From contig JBILEG010000001.1 in assembly GCA_044352225.1 (NCBI GenBank), positions 1 through 35,609 on the forward strand: 35,609 nt of DNA. Direction: 5' to 3'. The notes under the pieces were generated by a model. The model worked only from the letters and a program-made list of their open reading frames with translations. It was not told the origin of the DNA and did not search any database. Below are positions 5,565-11,978 of the stretch, one piece after another (position 1 is the first letter of the stretch; each line of letters starts with the position of its first letter). The stretch comes from Pseudomonadales bacterium (GTDB taxonomy: Bacteria; Pseudomonadota; Gammaproteobacteria; Pseudomonadales; UBA5518). Position numbers and translations under genes: made by a program.

Positions 5565-6614
5565 ATGCAGCGCATCACCGCACTCGACTCCATCCGGGGG
5601 CTGCTCCTTGCGTGGATGGCGATCGACCACTGGGGCGGGCCGGTCTCCGCGCAGCTCTACCAGCGGCTCGGATTCTGGACGGCAGCCGAGGGGTTTTTCT
5701 TCATTTCCGGCTACGTCGCCACGCAGGTTGCGCTGGGCAAGCCGGACCCGCAGCGCTGGTTCCTGCAGCGCAGCCGCCTCGTCTGGAAGTGGCATCTGGT
5801 TGCCCTGTTGCTGATGGCCCTGCTCGCGCTCGCCTTGCCCGCGCTTGGCTGGCGACCCCTGCAGGGGCTGGACGGGGGCGGTGCTCTGCGTGATGTGCTG
5901 GGTGCTGCAGTCCTGCTGCACCAGCCCGATTACCTGGATGTTCTGCCGCTTTACGTGGTCTTGCTCCTTGCCGCCGGAGCAGCCGTTCCCGAACTCGCAC
6001 GGCGCTGGCCGGCACGCGCGGGTTACTGGGTGCTCTCGGCGTCCCTGCTGCTTTGGCTCGCGGCCCAATGCGGCGCGCTCGGTGTGGTGCGCGCGCCTTT
6101 GCCGGCGTGGATGCGCATGGGGCTCTTCGATCCGCTCGGCTGGCAATTGCTGTTCTTTGCAGGCGTGAGCCTTGCCCTGCTGCGGCGCGATGGCCGGGTG
6201 CTGCAGCCACTCCTGCGGCGCCGTCTGGTGGTGGGTGCAACCGCGCTGGCACTGCTGTTCTTCGGCTGGCGCAACGGTCTTGCCGGTATGCAGCCACTGC
6301 CCGATGAATCCGTCTGGACCTCCAGGGCGCATCTCGGGCCCTTGCGCGTGCTGTCGTTTCTGGCGGTCGCAGTGCTGGTGGCCGAGGTGTTGCGACGCTG
6401 GCCGCGCGCGCTCGACTGGTCGCCCACCCGATTCCTCGGGCAGCACTCGCTTGCCGTGTTCAGCCTGCATTTGCCCCTTGTATATCTCTGGCACTTCAGG
6501 CCGGCGCCGGGCCCGTGGATCGCACAGGTCGTGGTGCCCTTGCTGATGCTCGGTGGCCTGTTCCTGATTGCCCGTGCCCATCAGCGCTGGACGCCCGTGT
6601 CCGCGAGCGCCTGA
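5565..6614 (+). CDS. OpgC-domain / acyltransferase-3-like integral membrane protein
   Basis: The start MQRITALDSIRGLLLAWMAIDHW matches the OpgC/acyltransferase-3 N-terminal signature (R...LD..RG......H). About 10 hydrophobic segments. Confidence 0.7.
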   Translation: MQRITALDSIRGLLLAWMAIDHWGGPVSAQLYQRLGFWTAAEGFFFISGYVATQVALGKPDPQRWFLQRSRLVWKWHLVALLLMALLALALPALGWRPLQGLDGGGALRDVLGAAVLLHQPDYLDVLPLYVVLLLAAGAAVPELARRWPARAGYWVLSASLLLWLAAQCGALGVVRAPLPAWMRMGLFDPLGWQLLFFAGVSLALLRRDGRVLQPLLRRRLVVGATALALLFFGWRNGLAGMQPLPDESVWTSRAHLGPLRVLSFLAVAVLVAEVLRRWPRALDWSPTRFLGQHSLAVFSLHLPLVYLWHFRPAPGPWIAQVVVPLLMLGGLFLIARAHQRWTPVSASA

Positions 6615-7225
6615 TGGATACACGCGGCTTCGTGCACAGGGGCAAGACCACCCGGTTCCGCGATCTGGGCGCGGTGGATGTCGGCGCCCTGGTGGCGAAG
6701 CTGCACACGCTGGCCGAGGACGACTGGCGCCGCCACGACGCCGCCAAACCCAACCGCTTCGATACCCTGGGCGGTACCCAGCATCTGGTGATGAAGTTCG
6801 TCCACCAGGTGGCCGTTCCCACCTCCTGGTACGCGCTGCCCGTTTGGGACGAGTGGGCGCCGCTGGTGCAGCCGCTGCTGGATGAGGCCGTGCGACGCCT
6901 GGGCTATGCGAGTGCGGAGTTTCCCCGCGTGATGCTTGCGCGCCTGCCTGCGGGCGCCGAGATCACGGCGCACCGTGATGGCGGCAAATTCCCCGCGTTT
7001 CCCCACAAGCTGCATATCGCGCTGGACACCAACCCCCACGTCGAGTTCTACGTCGATCCGGAGTGGCGCCACCTCGCCCGCGGCCAGTTGGTCGAGGTGA
7101 ACAACAACCTCACGCACGCGGTGCGTAACGATGGCGAGACCCCGAGGGTGCATCTGATCTTCGAGTGCATCGAGAGCCCGGTGGACCTGCAACGCCACGA
7201 CCGGGTGGGTGCGCGCTCGGCCTAG
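6614..7225 (+). CDS. aspartyl/asparaginyl beta-hydroxylase-family cupin protein (LpxO-like catalytic domain only)
   Basis: HRDGG...HKLHIALDTN...W..G...EVNN...HAVRN.G...RVHL fits the PF05118 2-His-1-carboxylate cupin pattern. The ATG at 6614 overlaps the upstream TGA (TGATG). Confidence 0.7.
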   Translation: MDTRGFVHRGKTTRFRDLGAVDVGALVAKLHTLAEDDWRRHDAAKPNRFDTLGGTQHLVMKFVHQVAVPTSWYALPVWDEWAPLVQPLLDEAVRRLGYASAEFPRVMLARLPAGAEITAHRDGGKFPAFPHKLHIALDTNPHVEFYVDPEWRHLARGQLVEVNNNLTHAVRNDGETPRVHLIFECIESPVDLQRHDRVGARSA

Positions 7226-8499
7226 CGTCCGGCGCTCTCTGTCGCGCGCTGCAGCACGCGCGCCACGCCAGCTGCCACGGCTGCGTCGTCGTGCCCGTCC
7301 CAGAGTTCTGCGGCCCAGTCACCCACGAAGATCGCCGTGATCGCGGGCAGGCCAAGCGTATCGCTCAGGTCCAGCCACTCGGATATCCGGCCTGCTCCGT
7401 CGGCGATGCGGATGTAGCCGTCGGCCGAGCGCGCCCACCAGCGCTCGCCGAACACCAGTGCCGCCTTTTCCACACGTCCTGCCGTGAGCAGCGAGAGCGC
7501 TGCCTGTTGCTCCTCAGGCAGGGGCGGATCGAAGCGCGGTTTACCCTCCTGCAGCACGGCGGCGGGCGCCGTTACGATCACCGCATCGGCGCGCGACTCG
7601 CCCTGCGCGTGGCGCAGTTCCACGCCCGATGCGTTCCAGCGGATGCGGGTGACGGGTGTGCCGAGGCGCAGGTCCAGGCCTTCTGCGAGCGCGGCGAGCA
7701 CGCTGCGGTAGCCGCCCACGATCCAGCGATCACCCGCGCCAACGCCGGCCTCGAAGCCGAGCCGCGCCGAGAGTTCGCCGAGCGGCGCGCCGGTGTCGAG
7801 GAATACCTCGGAGTCCACCACGCGCTGCACCGTGGCGCGGTCGAAGGGTGCCGGGTCGGCGAGGAAAGCATCCACCACCTGGGCAAGCCCGAGGTCGCGC
7901 TGCACGGTCGCGCGCTCCACACGCGCGTGCAGTTCTGCCATCACGGCCCCGCTGGTCCGAGGCCCCTTGGCCGGGGGGTGCCCGAGTTCCAGCGGGCGGT
8001 GGAAGTCGGTGGGCACCAGCGTGCAGCCCATCGCCTGCGCCACGGGCGCAAGCGTGTTCCTCTCGCCCTGTTGCAGCCAGTTCGCGCCCAGTTCCATCAC
8101 GACGGTGGATGCGGTTGCAGTTGGCAACTCCACGGACCAGGCGCGCCCGCCGATACGCTCGCGCGCCTCGAACACGACGCTGCGAATGCCCGCCTGCTGC
8201 AGGCTGCGCGCGGCACCGATGCCCGCGGCACCCGCGCCCACCACGGCCACGCTGCCGAAGCCTTGCGAGAGGCACCATTGCGCCGCGCGGCGGCCCTCGT
8301 CGAAGGCCCCGTGCACCATGCCCGATTGCTCCGGGTGCGTGGCCTCGCCGGCGATGATCACTCGGCCGAAGGGACGGCCAAGCATTGAGCGTGTCGCGGG
8401 AGTGCCGCCCACGCGGAGCAGGCTCCAGGCCCCGCGTGAGAACGGGTCCTCACGCCAGCGCGAGACGGCATGCGCCAGCGGCGTGCGTGCCTGGCTCAC
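7222..8499 (-). CDS. flavin-containing amine oxidase family protein with apparently circularly permuted domain order
   Basis: The GTG start at 8499 overlaps the upstream stop (GTGA). Residues 1-80 carry the canonical C-terminal motifs (SRWREDPFSRGAWS, IIAGEAT, MVHGAFDEGRRAA). Residues 84-120 carry the canonical N-terminal GxGxxG...E...GGR fold (VAVVGAGAAGIGAARSLQQAGIRSVVFEARERIGGR). Confidence 0.75.
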   Translation of the reverse strand: MSQARTPLAHAVSRWREDPFSRGAWSLLRVGGTPATRSMLGRPFGRVIIAGEATHPEQSGMVHGAFDEGRRAAQWCLSQGFGSVAVVGAGAAGIGAARSLQQAGIRSVVFEARERIGGRAWSVELPTATASTVVMELGANWLQQGERNTLAPVAQAMGCTLVPTDFHRPLELGHPPAKGPRTSGAVMAELHARVERATVQRDLGLAQVVDAFLADPAPFDRATVQRVVDSEVFLDTGAPLGELSARLGFEAGVGAGDRWIVGGYRSVLAALAEGLDLRLGTPVTRIRWNASGVELRHAQGESRADAVIVTAPAAVLQEGKPRFDPPLPEEQQAALSLLTAGRVEKAALVFGERWWARSADGYIRIADGAGRISEWLDLSDTLGLPAITAIFVGDWAAELWDGHDDAAVAAGVARVLQRATESAGR

Positions 8500-10685
8500 G
8501 ACGTGGCGTTTGCGCTGCTGCGCAGGTTCTCGGCCATGCGTCCCAGTGTGCGCTCCACCAGCGAGGTGTCCTCGATCTGCTGCAGGAAGCCGATCTGCAG
8601 TTCATAGGCGAAGAGCTTGCGCGACTTCTCCCAGATGGTGGCGCCGCTGCGGTCCGAGAAGATGAGCGTGCGTGATTCCTCGATGCGCGCCGAGAGCTTG
8701 CAGCGCCGGGTGACGCCGCTGCGCGGATCCTTGTATTCGAGCCAACTGCCCACCGGTACGGCATCGGCTTTCTGCAGCGATTCGAACATCAGCACCTCGC
8801 CGATCGGCCGCCCGCCCGCGAGCGGGTCGGGGCGGGGCGCGCCGCGCGGCGGGATGGGGGCGGGCAGTGTGACCTGTGCCGGCACCATCGGTGCGGGCGG
8901 TGCCGGGCTTTCGGTATCGGAGAGGGTGTCGCGATGGAGGTTACGGATCACATCGACACGCGCTTCAGCATCGGCGGTGTGGCTCTGGGTCTGGCCGAGT
9001 GCATTCTCGAGGCGGGCATGGAGTTGCTCCATGCGTGCTTCGAAGTCGGCGCGTTCGCTGCGGTGAGGGCGGTTGCGCACCGAGGCGACCAGATCGTCGA
9101 TCACCTGCACGGCGTCCTGCCATTCCGCGCTGGCGATACCCCGGCGCAGGTGGAAGAGCTGCATCACGCGCTGCCAGTCGCTGTTCAGGAAATCGAGCAC
9201 CGGGGCGGGGAGCGAGATGCCGTCGATGCGCTCGCGAAGTGCCTGGTAGACCGCGTCGCGGGCCGCGTTGGTGCGCGCGTCGGCCTCGGCCCTTTCGGCG
9301 GTGCGGCGCTCCATCTTGAGCGCACGCTGCTCCGTGCGCGTGGCGTGTTCCTGCAGGCGGCTTGCCGCCGCCCGGTAGCAGGCCTGATCGTTCTCCCCGG
9401 TCAGCACCTCGTCCACGACGCCGCGCAACTGCGCGAGCAGCACGGTCTGTACCTCTGCGTTTTCCGGGTCCCAGCCGAGGCCTGCACGGGCCATGAGATC
9501 GATCAGTTGCCGCGCCGGGTGCGCGGCATCGGCGAAGAAACTGCGATCCTGCAGCGCGAGGCGCAGCACGGGCAGTTGCAGGCGCGCGATCATCGCCTGT
9601 ATTTCCAGTGGCAGGTTGCGGTCGGCATTCACCGTGTCGAAGAACAGTGTCACCAGTCCGATGGTGTCGTGGTCGGTGGCAGCAAGTGAGAGTCGGCCCG
9701 TCTGGCGTGCGATGGCGGCAAGGGCTTCACGGATGTCCGGCAACGGGGCGTTGCCGGCATCGAGCCAGGTTGCGCTCCCTTGCAACTCCGCCACAAGGTT
9801 TGCGAGCCCCGCCGTGCTGACGCTGGCGGGCACGGCAGCGGTGGCCGTGCTGACCACGCTCGCGGGCAGTGCGGGCGCGACGGTACGCAGACGCGCCAGC
9901 AACTCGCTGATGTCGCGCAGGTCGGATGCGGCACGGCTGCTCTCTGCGGCTGCGGGGGCTGCAGCCTCCGGGCCCTGATCAGCCGGACGTGAGCGGGCGT
10001 CGGGTTTGCGCGAGCCCCGCGTGAGGGGGGAGAGTTCGGGCAGCACACCCGCCTCGCGCAGCAGGTCGTTCGCGGCGCTGTAAAGCTCTCCCAGGCAGGA
10101 GAGCACGCAACTGTCGAACTGGCTGCAGAGCGGACGCAGGATCCTCGGGTCCGGGCCGAGCATCGACGAGGCCTCCAGGAAGGCCCGGGTGATGTTCGCG
10201 GGGTCCAGGGGGTTGTCCGCTTCCTCGAAGGGCACAGCTGCGATGCGCAGCATCCGCTCGTGCAACTGGAAAAGCGCTTTCTGCGCCCGGTCGCGGGCGC
10301 GGTTGGCCATGCCGGCGGACAGCACATGGCGTTCGATCTGCTCCTGCGACACGAGTTCCAGCGAGTCTGCGCTGAAGCCGGGAGCCGTGGCTGCGGTCTC
10401 CGGGGGCGTGATGATGCGCTCGAAACCGGCGCCCAGGCGGGCGAGGAAGTCACTCCTGATCGTCTCCTGGCTACGCGCCATTTCGCGCAAAGCGTCGAGG
10501 AAGCGTTGCTGCTCGCTCACCACGGGCGTGGAGCCCGCGAGTTCGACCATCACCCTCTGCAGCGAGACGAAAAGCTCCGCCATCCCACGGGTGAGCGCCT
10601 CCGCGGCAAGCCCGCCCAGCGAGTTCAGCAGGGCCGCCTGGTCCGCGACGTCGTTCGGCGTGGGTGTGGGTGTGGAGGAAGGCAT
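8496..10685 (-). CDS. DUF1631 family protein (about 729 aa)
   Basis: ATG at 10685 (MPSSTPTP...). The central block NLPLEIQAMIARLQLPVLRLALQDRSFFADAAHPARQLIDLM and the C-terminal block GSWLEY....R.KLSARIEES..LIFSDRSG match my memory of DUF1631. The N-terminal 330 aa of track ORF 8496..11675 are antisense to the acyl-CoA dehydrogenase gene. Confidence 0.75.
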   Translation of the reverse strand: MPSSTPTPTPNDVADQAALLNSLGGLAAEALTRGMAELFVSLQRVMVELAGSTPVVSEQQRFLDALREMARSQETIRSDFLARLGAGFERIITPPETAATAPGFSADSLELVSQEQIERHVLSAGMANRARDRAQKALFQLHERMLRIAAVPFEEADNPLDPANITRAFLEASSMLGPDPRILRPLCSQFDSCVLSCLGELYSAANDLLREAGVLPELSPLTRGSRKPDARSRPADQGPEAAAPAAAESSRAASDLRDISELLARLRTVAPALPASVVSTATAAVPASVSTAGLANLVAELQGSATWLDAGNAPLPDIREALAAIARQTGRLSLAATDHDTIGLVTLFFDTVNADRNLPLEIQAMIARLQLPVLRLALQDRSFFADAAHPARQLIDLMARAGLGWDPENAEVQTVLLAQLRGVVDEVLTGENDQACYRAAASRLQEHATRTEQRALKMERRTAERAEADARTNAARDAVYQALRERIDGISLPAPVLDFLNSDWQRVMQLFHLRRGIASAEWQDAVQVIDDLVASVRNRPHRSERADFEARMEQLHARLENALGQTQSHTADAEARVDVIRNLHRDTLSDTESPAPPAPMVPAQVTLPAPIPPRGAPRPDPLAGGRPIGEVLMFESLQKADAVPVGSWLEYKDPRSGVTRRCKLSARIEESRTLIFSDRSGATIWEKSRKLFAYELQIGFLQQIEDTSLVERTLGRMAENLRSSANATS

Positions 10686-10814
10686 GTTCGTGTCACGTTC
10701 AGGAAGCCGCAAGGGTAGACCAAAGAACTGCCCGCTGTCGTGGCAGAGGGCGTGACGGGGGCTTCGGTGGTGCCCGATACTGGGTCGCGTTTGCCGACAC
10801 GCGGAGCCCCCCGG

Positions 10815-11978
10815 ATGTTGCAGTTCCTGACCGAAGAAGATCTCGCGTTCCGCGATACCGTGCGCCGCTGGGTGGATGCCGAGGTGCCCAAAGACTGGTG
10901 CCGCGCGCTGGAGCGGCGCGAGCACGAATTCCCCGAGATGCTCTGGGAGCGGCTGACCGCCTTCGGGGCACACGGCATCGGTATCCCCGAGGAACTGGGC
11001 GGGCAGGGCGGCAGTATCCTCACGCAGGCGCTCTTCGCCCGTGAACTCGCGCGCACTGCGGCCGGGTTGAGCTGGGTCTGGGGCGTCACCTCTTTCAGTG
11101 GCAGCAAGGCCATCGGCTATTGCGGCTCCGAGGAACAGCGCCGCGAATTCCTGCCACAGATCGCGGCGGGCAAGCTGCGCACTGCGATGGCCTTCACCGA
11201 GCCGGGCGGCGGAACGGATCTCCTCGGCGGCATGCGCACCCGTGCGCGGAAGGTCGATGGCGGTTGGGTGATCGACGGCGAGAAGATCTGGAGCACCTGC
11301 GCCCACGTTGCCGATTACCTCTTCCTGATGGCGCGCACCCGCACCGAGGTGGACAAGCGCTCCGACGGCATCTCGATCTTCTTCGTGCCCCGCCGCAGCT
11401 CCGGCATCACGATCACGGAACTCCCCAAACTCGGCATGCGTTGCGTTGCCTCCTGCGCGGTGCGGCTGGAGGAGGTCTTCGTGCCCGACGAGTTGCTGCT
11501 TGGCGAGGAGGGAAGGGGCTGGCGCCCGTCCACACGCCCGCTGAACAACGAGCGACTGGTGAATGCCGCCACGTGTCTGGGCATGCTCGACGGCGTGCTG
11601 GAAGACGCGCTCGCCCACATGCGCACGCGGCAGGCCTTCGGCCGGCTGATCGGGGAGTTCCAGGCGTTGCAGCACTACGTGGCCGACATGGCGATGTGGC
11701 AGGCGCAGGGCGAGTTGCTGGTGCTGAACACCGCGGCGCTGCAGGCAGCCGGCAAGCCGAGCGCCATGGAGTCGAACATGGCGAAGGTGCTGTGCTCGGA
11801 GTACGTGAGCAAGGCTGCGGACCTGGGTATACAGATCCTGGGCGGCATGGGTTACTCGGCCGAGACCGATATGCAGCGTTACTGGCGCGATTCGCGGCTG
11901 TTGCGCATCGGACCGATCAGCAACGAGATGGCGCGCAACCAGATCGCCGAAGGGCTCGGCTTGCCACGTTCGTTCTGA
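10815..11978 (+). CDS. acyl-CoA dehydrogenase family protein
   Basis: The ATG at 10815 follows a GGAG at 10803-10806. Typical ACAD layout, with AMAFTEPGGGTDL, GEKIWST, QAFGR.IGEFQALQH and GGMGYS blocks. Confidence 0.85.
   Translation: MLQFLTEEDLAFRDTVRRWVDAEVPKDWCRALERREHEFPEMLWERLTAFGAHGIGIPEELGGQGGSILTQALFARELARTAAGLSWVWGVTSFSGSKAIGYCGSEEQRREFLPQIAAGKLRTAMAFTEPGGGTDLLGGMRTRARKVDGGWVIDGEKIWSTCAHVADYLFLMARTRTEVDKRSDGISIFFVPRRSSGITITELPKLGMRCVASCAVRLEEVFVPDELLLGEEGRGWRPSTRPLNNERLVNAATCLGMLDGVLEDALAHMRTRQAFGRLIGEFQALQHYVADMAMWQAQGELLVLNTAALQAAGKPSAMESNMAKVLCSEYVSKAADLGIQILGGMGYSAETDMQRYWRDSRLLRIGPISNEMARNQIAEGLGLPRSF

What the first reader, a model, noticed from the sequence alone, without database searches (positions are those of the whole stretch)
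7222..8499. Apparent circular permutation of a flavin amine oxidase: the canonical C-terminal FAD segment is encoded at the N-terminus
In canonical PF01593 amine oxidases (maize PAO, MAO, putrescine oxidase, LSD1) the chain starts with the GxGxxG...E...GGR fold. It ends with TRW..DP..RG.YS...FAGEAT.....G.V.GA..SG..AA. In this ORF, residues 1-80 are that C-terminal segment (AVSRWREDPFSRGAWSLLRVGG...RVIIAGEATHPEQSGMVHGAFDEGRRAAQWCL). They are followed in frame by the canonical N-terminus (VAVVGAGAAGIGAARSLQQAGIRSVVFEARERIGGR). The ORF then stops (...DGHDDAAVAAGVARVLQRATESAGR*) exactly where a normal enzyme would continue into the TRW motif. Total length (425 aa) equals one normal enzyme, so this looks like a clean permutation, as from tandem duplication with both ends trimmed, rather than a fusion or truncation. 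In known structures both termini contribute to the FAD domain, so a permuted fold is structurally plausible. The GTG start overlaps the upstream stop (GTGA), which supports translation from the permuted N-terminus.
Basis: partly seen in the sequence, partly recalled or inferred. Interest (0 to 1): 0.72.

Follow-up and report, generated by a model that had tools for sequence, protein, structure and literature searches.

The report
Naturally circularly permuted flavin amine oxidase
This gene encodes a flavin amine oxidase whose last ~75 residues have moved to the front of the chain; the rearrangement is real, conserved in hundreds of bacterial relatives, and apparently undescribed, but it is a topological variant of a well-known enzyme fold.

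Summary
ORF 7222-8499 (minus strand, 425 aa) matches Pfam PF01593 in swapped order. Residues 5-74 match profile positions 370-440 of 443, and residues 91-419 match positions 2-364. The cut is clean, with nothing lost or duplicated.

It is not an assembly artefact. The same order occurs in about 290 distinct relatives and 59 genomic loci, including finished chromosomes of Kineococcus radiotolerans and Actinoplanes. The N-terminal segment is among the most conserved regions and is under purifying selection.

AlphaFold2 gives a compact, confident model (pLDDT 93, pTM 0.92). Its closest solved folds are LSD2, maize polyamine oxidase and Fms1, all in canonical order. No PDB chain spans the permuted junction, and I found no paper describing it.

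There are two permuted groups:
- **Clade A:** the query's cytoplasmic clade, with 100% bootstrap support and altered active-site residues.
- **Group B:** a large set of Tat-lipoprotein forms from uncultured Acidimicrobiia, which keep the canonical polyamine-oxidase motifs.

Both groups share the same cut site and junction length. Whether the permutation arose once or twice, the tandem-duplication route and the substrate all remain unresolved. Verdict: a real, new topological variant of a known family, of moderate interest.

The parts
7222..8499 (-). Complete ORF (425 aa) of the circularly permuted flavin amine oxidase-family protein
   Evidence: Full-length homologues of 410-440 aa. AF2 model with pLDDT 93.2 and pTM 0.92.
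8278..8487 (-). Residues 5-74: the segment that is C-terminal in canonical enzymes (W..DP..RG.WS ... AGEATHP ... HGA helix). It carries the second FAD-binding motif (G51-E52) and the aromatic residue W25.
   Evidence: Matches Pfam PF01593 positions 370-440/443 at E 4.8e-14. Aligns to the C-termini of LSD2, Fms1 and mPAO. Invariant W15, G23, W25, S26, G51, E52, T54, M61 and H63 in 40 homologues. Predicted elements are E9-12, E26-29, H34-40, E47-49 and H62-78.
8251..8277 (-). Residues 75-83: the new junction (W-CLSQGFGS), joining the former C-terminal helix to Rossmann strand beta-1
   Evidence: The spacing from GE to GxGxxG is 37 residues in nearly all clade A members and 37-40 in group B. pLDDT is 98 across residues 71-90.
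8143..8253 (-). Residues 83-119: Rossmann beta-alpha-beta with GAGAAG, the acidic residue ending beta-2 (E111), and the R-IGGR motif. This is the N-terminus in canonical enzymes.
   Evidence: PF13450 and PF01593 hits. Invariant G88, G90, A92, G93, R113, R115, G117, G118 and R119.
7243..8229 (-). Residues 91-419: FAD-binding and substrate-binding core, in canonical internal order
   Evidence: Matches Pfam PF01593 positions 2-364/443. Foldseek top hits are LSD2, mPAO and Fms1 with 372-385 aligned columns.
7465..7467 (-). Codon for Lys345 in the GRVEK motif, the candidate conserved active-site lysine
   Evidence: Invariant in 40 homologues. Aligns to the EK of LSD2 'agiiEKial'. Equating it with mPAO Lys300, LSD1 Lys661 and MAO-B Lys296 rests on my knowledge of those structures.
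8496..8499 (-). GTGA: the start codon of the oxidase overlaps the TGA stop of the upstream co-directional DUF1631 gene
   Evidence: Read directly from the sequence. DUF1631 assignment. The close relative L003 has an ATG at the equivalent position.
7222..7225 (.). CTAG: the stop codon of the oxidase (TAG, minus strand) overlaps the TAG stop of the convergent Asp/Asn beta-hydroxylase-like gene. No relic of a duplicated amine-oxidase segment lies downstream.

Best explanation
The ORF encodes a genuine, functional-looking member of the flavin amine oxidase (PF01593, MAO/PAO/LSD) fold whose polypeptide is circularly permuted. The chain begins at the loop just before the 'W..DP..G.[YW]S ... AGE' segment, which normally forms the last ~75 residues and completes the FAD-binding domain. 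It runs through the former C-terminal helix and crosses an ~8-residue linker into Rossmann strand beta-1 (GxGxxG). It ends after the helix that normally precedes that loop. All FAD-binding motifs and the conserved active-site lysine are present, so it most likely binds FAD and oxidises an amine, with the same three-dimensional arrangement as canonical enzymes. That activity is inferred, not shown. The permuted order is an inherited family trait. It is found in the query's cytoplasmic clade A (Actinoplanes, Kineosporia, Kineococcus, Acidimicrobiia, Anderseniella and freshwater Gammaproteobacteria MAGs). It is also found in a large group B of Tat-lipoprotein enzymes from uncultured Acidimicrobiia. 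The gene probably reached the window's proteobacterial lineage by horizontal transfer from Actinomycetota (inferred). The permutation plausibly arose by in-frame head-to-tail fusion of two copies followed by loss of both outer ends (inferred). Clade A has replaced several substrate-pocket residues, so its substrate probably differs from that of classical polyamine oxidases (inferred).
For: Swapped-order homology: (Pfam positions 370-440 followed by 2-364; PDB C-termini align to residues 6-73).

Conservation of the order: all full-length proteins among the top 120 homologues have W..DP at ~15, AGE at ~50 and GxGxxG at ~88. HMM classification of 264 proteins gave 187 permuted, 69 canonical and 0 with the segment at both ends. 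A further 106 of 110 proteins were permuted in the group B search.

Independent genomes: 59 loci, including complete chromosomes of Actinoplanes (L016, L028, L029, L050) and K. radiotolerans CP000750.2.

Selection: the N-segment holds many invariant residues. Synonymous-difference codons outnumber non-synonymous ones, e.g. 25 vs 17 in 80 codons against L002, as in the core.

Fold: AF2 gives pLDDT 93.2, pTM 0.92, N-segment pLDDT 83-98, and a secondary-structure order identical to a canonical C-terminal segment followed by the Rossmann fold. Foldseek gives LSD2 at E 8e-24 and TMq 0.67, then mPAO, Fms1 and MAO.

Clade structure: clade A has 100% bootstrap support. Cut site and junction length are the same in A and B.

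Active-site changes in A relative to B and canonical forms: H to Q in GANWLQQ, Y to W in G.WS, T to M in GM.HGA.
Against: There are no experimental data on FAD binding, activity or the true N-terminus. I could not export model coordinates, so no permutation-aware superposition (TM-align -cp or CE-CP) was done. Docking of the N-segment into the FAD domain therefore rests on AF2 confidence, secondary-structure order and motif conservation. AF2 may also be biased towards the canonical fold it learned. No duplication intermediate was found in bacteria. Once the segment order is normalised, clade A is equidistant from group B and from canonical relatives, so one origin versus two is unresolved. Gene neighbourhood is not conserved beyond close relatives, so there is no pathway clue to function.
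Confidence: 0.9

Rival explanations
1. Assembly artefact: a collapsed or mis-joined tandem duplication of a canonical amine oxidase gene gives an apparent C-end-then-N-end ORF.
For: A priori this is the commonest cause of apparent permutations in draft or metagenomic sequence. The window's provenance is unknown.
Against: The same architecture and length are seen in 59 independently assembled genomic loci, including finished chromosomes, and in about 290 distinct proteins. The flanks are unrelated genes (DUF1631 and an Asp/Asn hydroxylase-like gene) with no partial oxidase copies. Synteny is kept in L001-L004.
Confidence: 0.01
2. Decaying or truncated gene: translation starts at an internal Met (Met39 or Met61), giving a C-terminally truncated pseudo-enzyme. 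The upstream in-frame 'C-terminal-like' stretch is then an untranslated relic.
For: There is no obvious Shine-Dalgarno sequence before the GTG. GTG starts are less common than ATG.
Against: Residues 11-60 include invariant V12, S13, W15, G23, W25, S26, R37, P43, G51, E52 and T54 across sequences only ~48% identical overall. Synonymous differences exceed non-synonymous ones in codons 1-80. Homologues start 7-12 residues before the W motif, and L003 has an ATG there. The 4-nt GTGA overlap is typical of translational coupling.
Confidence: 0.02
3. The permuted protein is real, but clade A no longer acts as an amine or polyamine oxidase. Its remodelled pocket could serve a different substrate class or electron acceptor (a dehydrogenase rather than an oxidase), or a non-catalytic role.
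For: Clade A differs from both group B and canonical relatives at ten otherwise conserved positions. These include the His of GASWIHG (now Q), the Tyr of G.YS (now W) and the Thr of TVHGA (now M). No NCBIfam equivalog matches beyond the Rossmann region. There is no conserved operon.
Against: The FAD motifs and Lys345 are invariant. The replacements are conservative for an aromatic or hydrophobic cage (W for Y). The overall fold and tunnel-forming core are retained.
Confidence: 0.2
4. The permutation arose more than once (clade A and group B independently), or by gene fission and re-fusion, rather than by a single tandem duplication with end-trimming.
For: After normalising segment order, clade A scores equally against group B and canonical profiles (Mann-Whitney p = 0.66). 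The NJ tree does not unite A with B, and B is interleaved with canonical clades at ~0% bootstrap. There are no A+B-specific residues and no duplication intermediates.
Against: A and B share the same cut site (just before the VP[DE]P loop) and near-identical junction length. Both groups occur in Acidimicrobiia. The unresolved tree reflects weak signal, not support for polyphyly.
Confidence: 0.25

Closest known systems
Canonical flavin polyamine/amine oxidases of Pfam PF01593: maize PAO (1B37), yeast Fms1 (1RSG), the amine-oxidase domains of human LSD2/KDM1B (4FWE, 4HSU) and LSD1, SMOX/PAOX, and MAO-A/B
   Same: The two-domain FAD/substrate fold is the same (Foldseek E 8e-24 to 1e-17). The GxGxxG...E...GGR and GE FAD motifs are shared, as is the conserved lysine. 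All Pfam profile segments are present exactly once.
   Different: The order of segments along the chain is rotated: the last ~75 residues come first. No PDB chain has this order. Clade A also differs at pocket residues (Q for H, W for Y, M for T).
Canonical-order bacterial PAO-like oxidases, many with Tat signals (e.g. P0141, P0163, P0205)
   Same: They are 30-38% identical to the query over core plus C-segment and have the same motif set.
   Different: They run core then C-segment. Their short N-terminal leader and short C-terminal tail together correspond to the linker in the permuted forms.
Group B permuted oxidases of uncultured Acidimicrobiia (e.g. P0166, P0149)
   Same: They have the same permuted order, the same cut site and a junction of 37-40 residues from GE to GxGxxG.
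   Different: They carry an N-terminal twin-arginine signal plus lipobox (88 and 67 of 106 respectively) and keep the canonical PAO-type pocket motifs. They are only ~34% identical to clade A.
Natural circular permutants in other families, as reviewed in 'Circular Permutation in Proteins' (PMC3320104), CPDB (PMC2686539) and CIRPIN-DB (PMC13552848)
   Same: This meets the definition: the N-part of one protein is homologous to the C-part of the other and vice versa, with the same fold. The usual proposed origin is duplication and fusion followed by truncation.
   Different: I found no mention of flavin amine oxidases in those papers' main texts or in full-text searches. The 18-million-pair CIRPIN-DB itself could not be queried.

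Membership tests
Flavin-containing amine oxidoreductase family (Pfam PF01593; MAO/PAO/LSD fold) | Significant match to the family profile above the curated threshold | tested here: met
   184.5 bits against a cut-off of 19.8. Both pieces are significant on their own, at 52.9 and 142.1 bits.
Flavin-containing amine oxidoreductase family (Pfam PF01593; MAO/PAO/LSD fold) | Dinucleotide-binding beta-alpha-beta with GxGxxG, an acidic residue at the end of beta-2, and an R.GGR motif | tested here: met
   G88-A-G90-A-A-G93, E111 and R115-I-G-G-R119 are invariant or nearly so in 40 homologues. PF13450 hit.
Flavin-containing amine oxidoreductase family (Pfam PF01593; MAO/PAO/LSD fold) | Second FAD-binding segment (W..DP..G.YS ... 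[FA]AGE.T ... HGA helix) | tested here: met
   It is present at residues 12-73 and aligned to the C-termini of LSD2, Fms1 and mPAO. G51 and E52 are invariant. Y is replaced by W25.
Flavin-containing amine oxidoreductase family (Pfam PF01593; MAO/PAO/LSD fold) | Conserved active-site lysine (bridged by water to flavin N5) | tested here: met
   K345 is invariant and aligned to the EK of LSD2. Its structural role is inferred from knowledge of mPAO K300 and LSD1 K661.
Flavin-containing amine oxidoreductase family (Pfam PF01593; MAO/PAO/LSD fold) | Two-domain three-dimensional fold | tested here: met
   The AF2 model has pLDDT 93 and pTM 0.92. Foldseek against PDB gives LSD2, mPAO, Fms1 and MAO at probability 1.00. 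This is a predicted structure, not an experimental one.
Flavin-containing amine oxidoreductase family (Pfam PF01593; MAO/PAO/LSD fold) | Canonical sequential order (Rossmann at the N-terminus, second FAD segment at the C-terminus) | tested here: not met
   The order is rotated. This is the feature that makes it a variant. Homology and fold membership are unaffected.
Flavin-containing amine oxidoreductase family (Pfam PF01593; MAO/PAO/LSD fold) | Binds FAD and oxidises an amine with O2 to give H2O2 | not testable with these tools
   Requires expression, a flavin spectrum and activity assays.
Circular permutation (as defined in PMC3320104) | The N-terminal part is homologous to the C-terminal part of relatives and vice versa, with each segment present once | tested here: met
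   Pfam positions 370-440 followed by 2-364, with no duplicated segment. Canonical relatives show core then Cseg, with a ~10-residue loop at the site of the new termini.
Circular permutation (as defined in PMC3320104) | Same three-dimensional structure when superposed without regard to chain order | tested here: inconclusive
   The model is compact and confident, and its secondary-structure order matches. Sequential Foldseek covers the core only, with TMq 0.64-0.68. A permutation-aware superposition could not be run.
Circular permutation (as defined in PMC3320104) | An evolutionary trait, not an artefact: conserved in a clade | tested here: met
   About 290 permuted proteins and 59 genomic loci. 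Clade A has 100% bootstrap support.

The most novel reading that the evidence does not exclude
The permuted topology defines a large, previously unrecognised branch of flavin amine oxidases with new biology. Clade A would be a cytoplasmic enzyme with a remodelled pocket and a new substrate or chemistry. Group B would be an abundant cell-surface (Tat-lipoprotein) amine oxidase of uncultured marine and freshwater Acidimicrobiia, used to scavenge nitrogen from polyamines or other amines. The permutation may have arisen independently in the two groups at the same loop, which would mark that loop as a privileged breakpoint of the fold.
Probability: 0.25. Interest if true: 0.65.

Novelty: new variant of a known kind. 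Interest (0 to 1): 0.5.

Why it matters
The MAO/PAO/LSD fold is one of the most studied flavoenzyme scaffolds, as a drug target, an epigenetic eraser and a biocatalyst. A natural, widespread circular permutant has three consequences.

- It shows that the chain can be opened at the loop before the W..DP strand and closed between the C-terminal helix and Rossmann strand beta-1 without losing the conserved motifs. That gives an evolution-validated site for engineering, such as permutants, split enzymes, insertions and biosensors.
- Family-level annotation and sequential structure search treat these proteins as ordinary or partial hits. Domain-order-aware analysis is needed to see the difference.
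- It exposes two uncharacterised enzyme groups. One is abundant in environmental Acidimicrobiia and appears to be exported.

It does not overturn any principle. Circular permutation is well documented in other families, and the canonical termini of this fold evidently lie close together.

Tried and rejected
- **Misassembly or collapsed duplication:** rejected.
- **Internal start or pseudogene:** rejected.
- **Duplication intermediates (Cseg-core-Cseg):** none among 374 classified proteins. The only tandem fusion found, P0212 (1449 aa, three units, inter-unit spacing GE to GxG of 38), is a wasp 'LOW QUALITY PROTEIN' gene model. It serves only as a weak analogy that head-to-tail units can be joined by ~8 residues.
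- **Conserved operon as a clue to function:** none. DUF1631, the Asp/Asn-hydroxylase-like gene and OpgC are syntenic only in the closest four loci. Actinoplanes, Kineococcus and Acidimicrobiales contexts are unrelated.
- **Phylogeny for one versus two origins:** NJ with bootstrap, and profile scoring after re-ordering, were uninformative outside clade A. No maximum-likelihood software was available.
- **NCBIfam:** only Rossmann-region hits, far below cut-offs.
- **Literature:** five full-text searches and two targeted papers gave nothing on permuted flavin amine oxidases.
- **Permutation-aware structural superposition:** not possible, because model coordinates are not exposed to the scripting tool.
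- **tRNA scan of the window:** no tRNA genes.
Full report
**1. Observation**

The window carries a 425-codon ORF on the minus strand, 7222..8499, with a GTG start and TAG stop. The whole protein matches Pfam PF01593 (flavin-containing amine oxidoreductase) at 184.5 bits. Splitting the protein shows the order of the match:
- Residues 5-74 match profile positions 370-440 of 443 (E 4.8e-14).
- Residues 91-419 match positions 2-364 (E 4.2e-41).

Every part of the profile is therefore present once, and the break falls at about profile positions 365-369. Against PDB sequences, residues 6-73 align with the extreme C-termini of LSD2 (702-770/776), Fms1 (436-500/516), maize PAO (390-452/472) and PAOX (409-483/497). 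Residues 74-123 align with their N-terminal GxGxxG...GGR regions. The GTG start overlaps the TGA of the upstream DUF1631 gene (GTGA). The TAG stop overlaps the stop of a convergent Asp/Asn beta-hydroxylase-like gene (CTAG). The flanks hold no partial oxidase copies.

**2. Real or artefact?**

A search of 5.8 billion proteins returned hundreds of full-length relatives of 410-440 aa. All full-length members of the top 120 have the W..DP motif near residue 15, AGE near 50 and GxGxxG near 88. In a 40-sequence alignment (mean identity 48%), the N-terminal segment is among the best conserved regions: V12, S13, W15, G23, W25, S26, R37, P43, G51, E52, T54, M61 and H63 are all invariant.

A scan of one genome per species found 59 loci encoding the permuted protein. 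These include complete chromosomes of four Actinoplanes strains, plus Kineosporia, Winogradskya, Acidimicrobiia, Anderseniella (Alphaproteobacteria) and freshwater Gammaproteobacteria MAGs. The closest, at 94% identity, comes from Lake Erken. The finished Kineococcus radiotolerans chromosome CP000750.2 also carries it.

Against the four closest loci, codons 1-80 show more synonymous than non-synonymous differences (e.g. 25 vs 17, 30 vs 22), as the core does. One of these relatives has an ATG at the equivalent start. Misassembly, and an internal start at Met61, are therefore excluded.

**3. Structure**

AlphaFold2 with the 40-sequence alignment gives mean pLDDT 93.2 and pTM 0.92. No segment falls below 50, and residues 1-90 score 83-98. 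The predicted elements of residues 1-80 (strand 9-12, strand 26-29, helix 34-40, strand 47-49, long helix 62-78) match the order expected for the canonical C-terminal segment. They run straight into Rossmann beta-1 (83-87), alpha-A (91-102) and beta-2 (106-111).

Foldseek against the PDB ranks LSD2 first (E 8e-24, TMq 0.67), then maize PAO, Fms1 and MAO. Because Foldseek aligns sequentially, it covers only the ~345-residue core. No PDB chain matches across the permuted junction: every hit to residues 1-130 splits into a C-terminal piece and an N-terminal piece. I could not run a permutation-aware superposition. Docking of the N-segment in the canonical position is thus inferred from the high global confidence, the secondary-structure order, and the invariance of the FAD-contacting G51-E52 motif.

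**4. Extent and anatomy of the permuted family**

An exhaustive HMMER search of 1.84 billion cluster representatives found 15,923 relatives (E ≤ 1e-3), of which 851 had E ≤ 1e-30. I built separate HMMs for the 'C-segment' and the 'core' and used them to classify 264 collected proteins:
- 187 were permuted.
- 69 were canonical.
- 8 were fragments, or the wasp fusion P0212.
- None had the C-segment at both ends.

In an NJ tree of re-ordered sequences, the query's clade (clade A) has 100% bootstrap support. Clade A proteins have only 4-12 residues before the W motif and no signal peptide.

A second set, group B, has 30-75-residue leaders with twin-arginine motifs and lipoboxes, e.g. MITRRRFLVLGGSLLVTAC. 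A profile search with group B returned 4,692 hits at E ≤ 1e-20. Of the 110 best new hits, 106 are permuted, 88 have an RR motif and 67 have a lipobox-like motif. All come from uncultured Acidimicrobiia or Actinomycetota, some in clusters of hundreds of members including Tara Oceans data. All carry only generic names.

A and B share the same cut site. The mature chain starts at the VP[DE]P loop that in canonical enzymes follows the last core helix. The spacing from GE to GxGxxG is 37 in A and 37-40 in B. The junction length equals a canonical short C-terminal tail plus a short cytoplasmic N-terminal leader.

**5. Origin**

The data fit the classical model of duplication, fusion and truncation, but they do not demonstrate it. 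No bacterial intermediate was found. The only tandem fusion is a triple-unit wasp gene model flagged 'LOW QUALITY PROTEIN'. It shows an inter-unit spacing of 38 residues and is no more than an analogy.

One event versus two cannot be decided. Outside clade A the tree is unresolved, with bootstraps near 0. There are no A+B-specific residues. Clade A scores equally against group B and canonical profiles once the order is normalised (p = 0.66). The shared breakpoint, the shared junction length and the co-occurrence of both groups in Acidimicrobiia favour a single event.

The window's lineage is proteobacterial, while most of clade A is actinobacterial. Horizontal acquisition is therefore likely, but this is inferred.

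**6. Function**

All FAD motifs are intact, and the conserved lysine (K345, in GRVEK) aligns to the EK of LSD2. Group B keeps the PAO/SMOX-type signature (GASWIHG..GNP, G.L[ND]K, G.YS, TVHGA). Clade A has GANWLQQ, GRVEK, G.WS and GM.HGA. I therefore expect an FAD-dependent amine oxidation, with a substrate that differs from classical polyamine oxidases.

No pathway context helps. DUF1631, the hydroxylase-like gene and OpgC are syntenic only in the four closest loci. Other genomes show unrelated neighbours. NCBIfam has no specific model for this protein.

**7. Comparison with what is known, and novelty**

The protein is a homologue and fold member of PF01593, but it fails the family's canonical segment order. 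It meets the definition of a natural circular permutant (PMC3320104).

Full-text searches for circular permutation together with amine oxidase, flavin, FAD-binding or polyamine oxidase found nothing relevant. The recent systematic survey CIRPIN (PMC13552848) and a protein-language-model study (PMC11757225) do not mention flavin oxidases in their texts. The CIRPIN database itself could not be queried. Subscription-only literature is not covered by these searches.

I rate this a new variant of a known kind.

**8. Verdict**

The finding is real and correctly interpreted. It is a neat case of protein-topology evolution in a heavily studied enzyme fold. It comes with a sizeable uncharacterised family and a ready engineering lesson. 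It does not change any principle, and the substrate is unknown. Interest 0.5.

Noticed in passing
Proteins P0144-P0262 and P0288-P0397 (not in the window); e.g. P0166 and P0149 from Acidimicrobiales MAGs: There is a second, large group of permuted amine oxidases with N-terminal twin-arginine signals plus lipoboxes (probable exported lipoproteins). They are abundant in uncultured marine and freshwater Acidimicrobiia, keep canonical polyamine-oxidase pocket motifs, and carry only generic annotation.
   Followed up: partly
window 7222-7225: The oxidase and the convergent Asp/Asn beta-hydroxylase-like gene (6515-7225, +) end on the same palindromic CTAG, so their TAG stop codons overlap on opposite strands.
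   Followed up: no
window 8496-11675 (-) and 10740-11978 (+): The 1059-aa ORF listed upstream is over-extended. Only its last ~734 aa (8496-10700) match DUF1631 (PF07793, E 2e-140). The 5' part overlaps a divergent acyl-CoA dehydrogenase gene on the other strand.
   Followed up: partly
L004 3354-4625 (a MAG labelled Klebsiella pneumoniae, contig CAMAXE010000022.1): In this close relative, the DUF1631 gene upstream of the oxidase appears largely missing: only a 59-aa match remains. The acyl-CoA dehydrogenase lies almost next to the oxidase. The 'Klebsiella' label of this MAG looks doubtful, because its neighbours match the freshwater Gammaproteobacteria loci.
   Followed up: no
P0212 (XP_034936671.1, Chelonus insularis, 1449 aa): This is a triple head-to-tail amine-oxidase gene model in a parasitoid wasp. 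The units are joined by ~8 residues (...READRLINLYKPSPKIVIIGAGPAG...). It is flagged LOW QUALITY, so it may be merged tandem genes rather than a true fusion.
   Followed up: partly
P0041, P0062, P0063, P0073, P0090, P0097, P0120 (clade A relatives); P0119: Several clade A members carry 40-100-residue insertions in the substrate domain, after about core position 45-95. P0119 has an internal tandem repeat around the 'DPPLP' motif. P0135 (600 aa) and P0140 (527 aa) have C-terminal extensions of 144 and 77 residues.
   Followed up: no
L011, L017, L018, L026, L027 (Anderseniella / Alphaproteobacteria loci), 9-12 nt upstream of the oxidase: In the alphaproteobacterial members, a ~490-aa gene (motif ...NNEVHARPPEAL..., which resembles DUF3422 from memory) sits immediately upstream on the same strand, and a GMC-type oxidoreductase-like gene lies ~2.4-3 kb upstream. 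This may be a lineage-specific operon.
   Followed up: no
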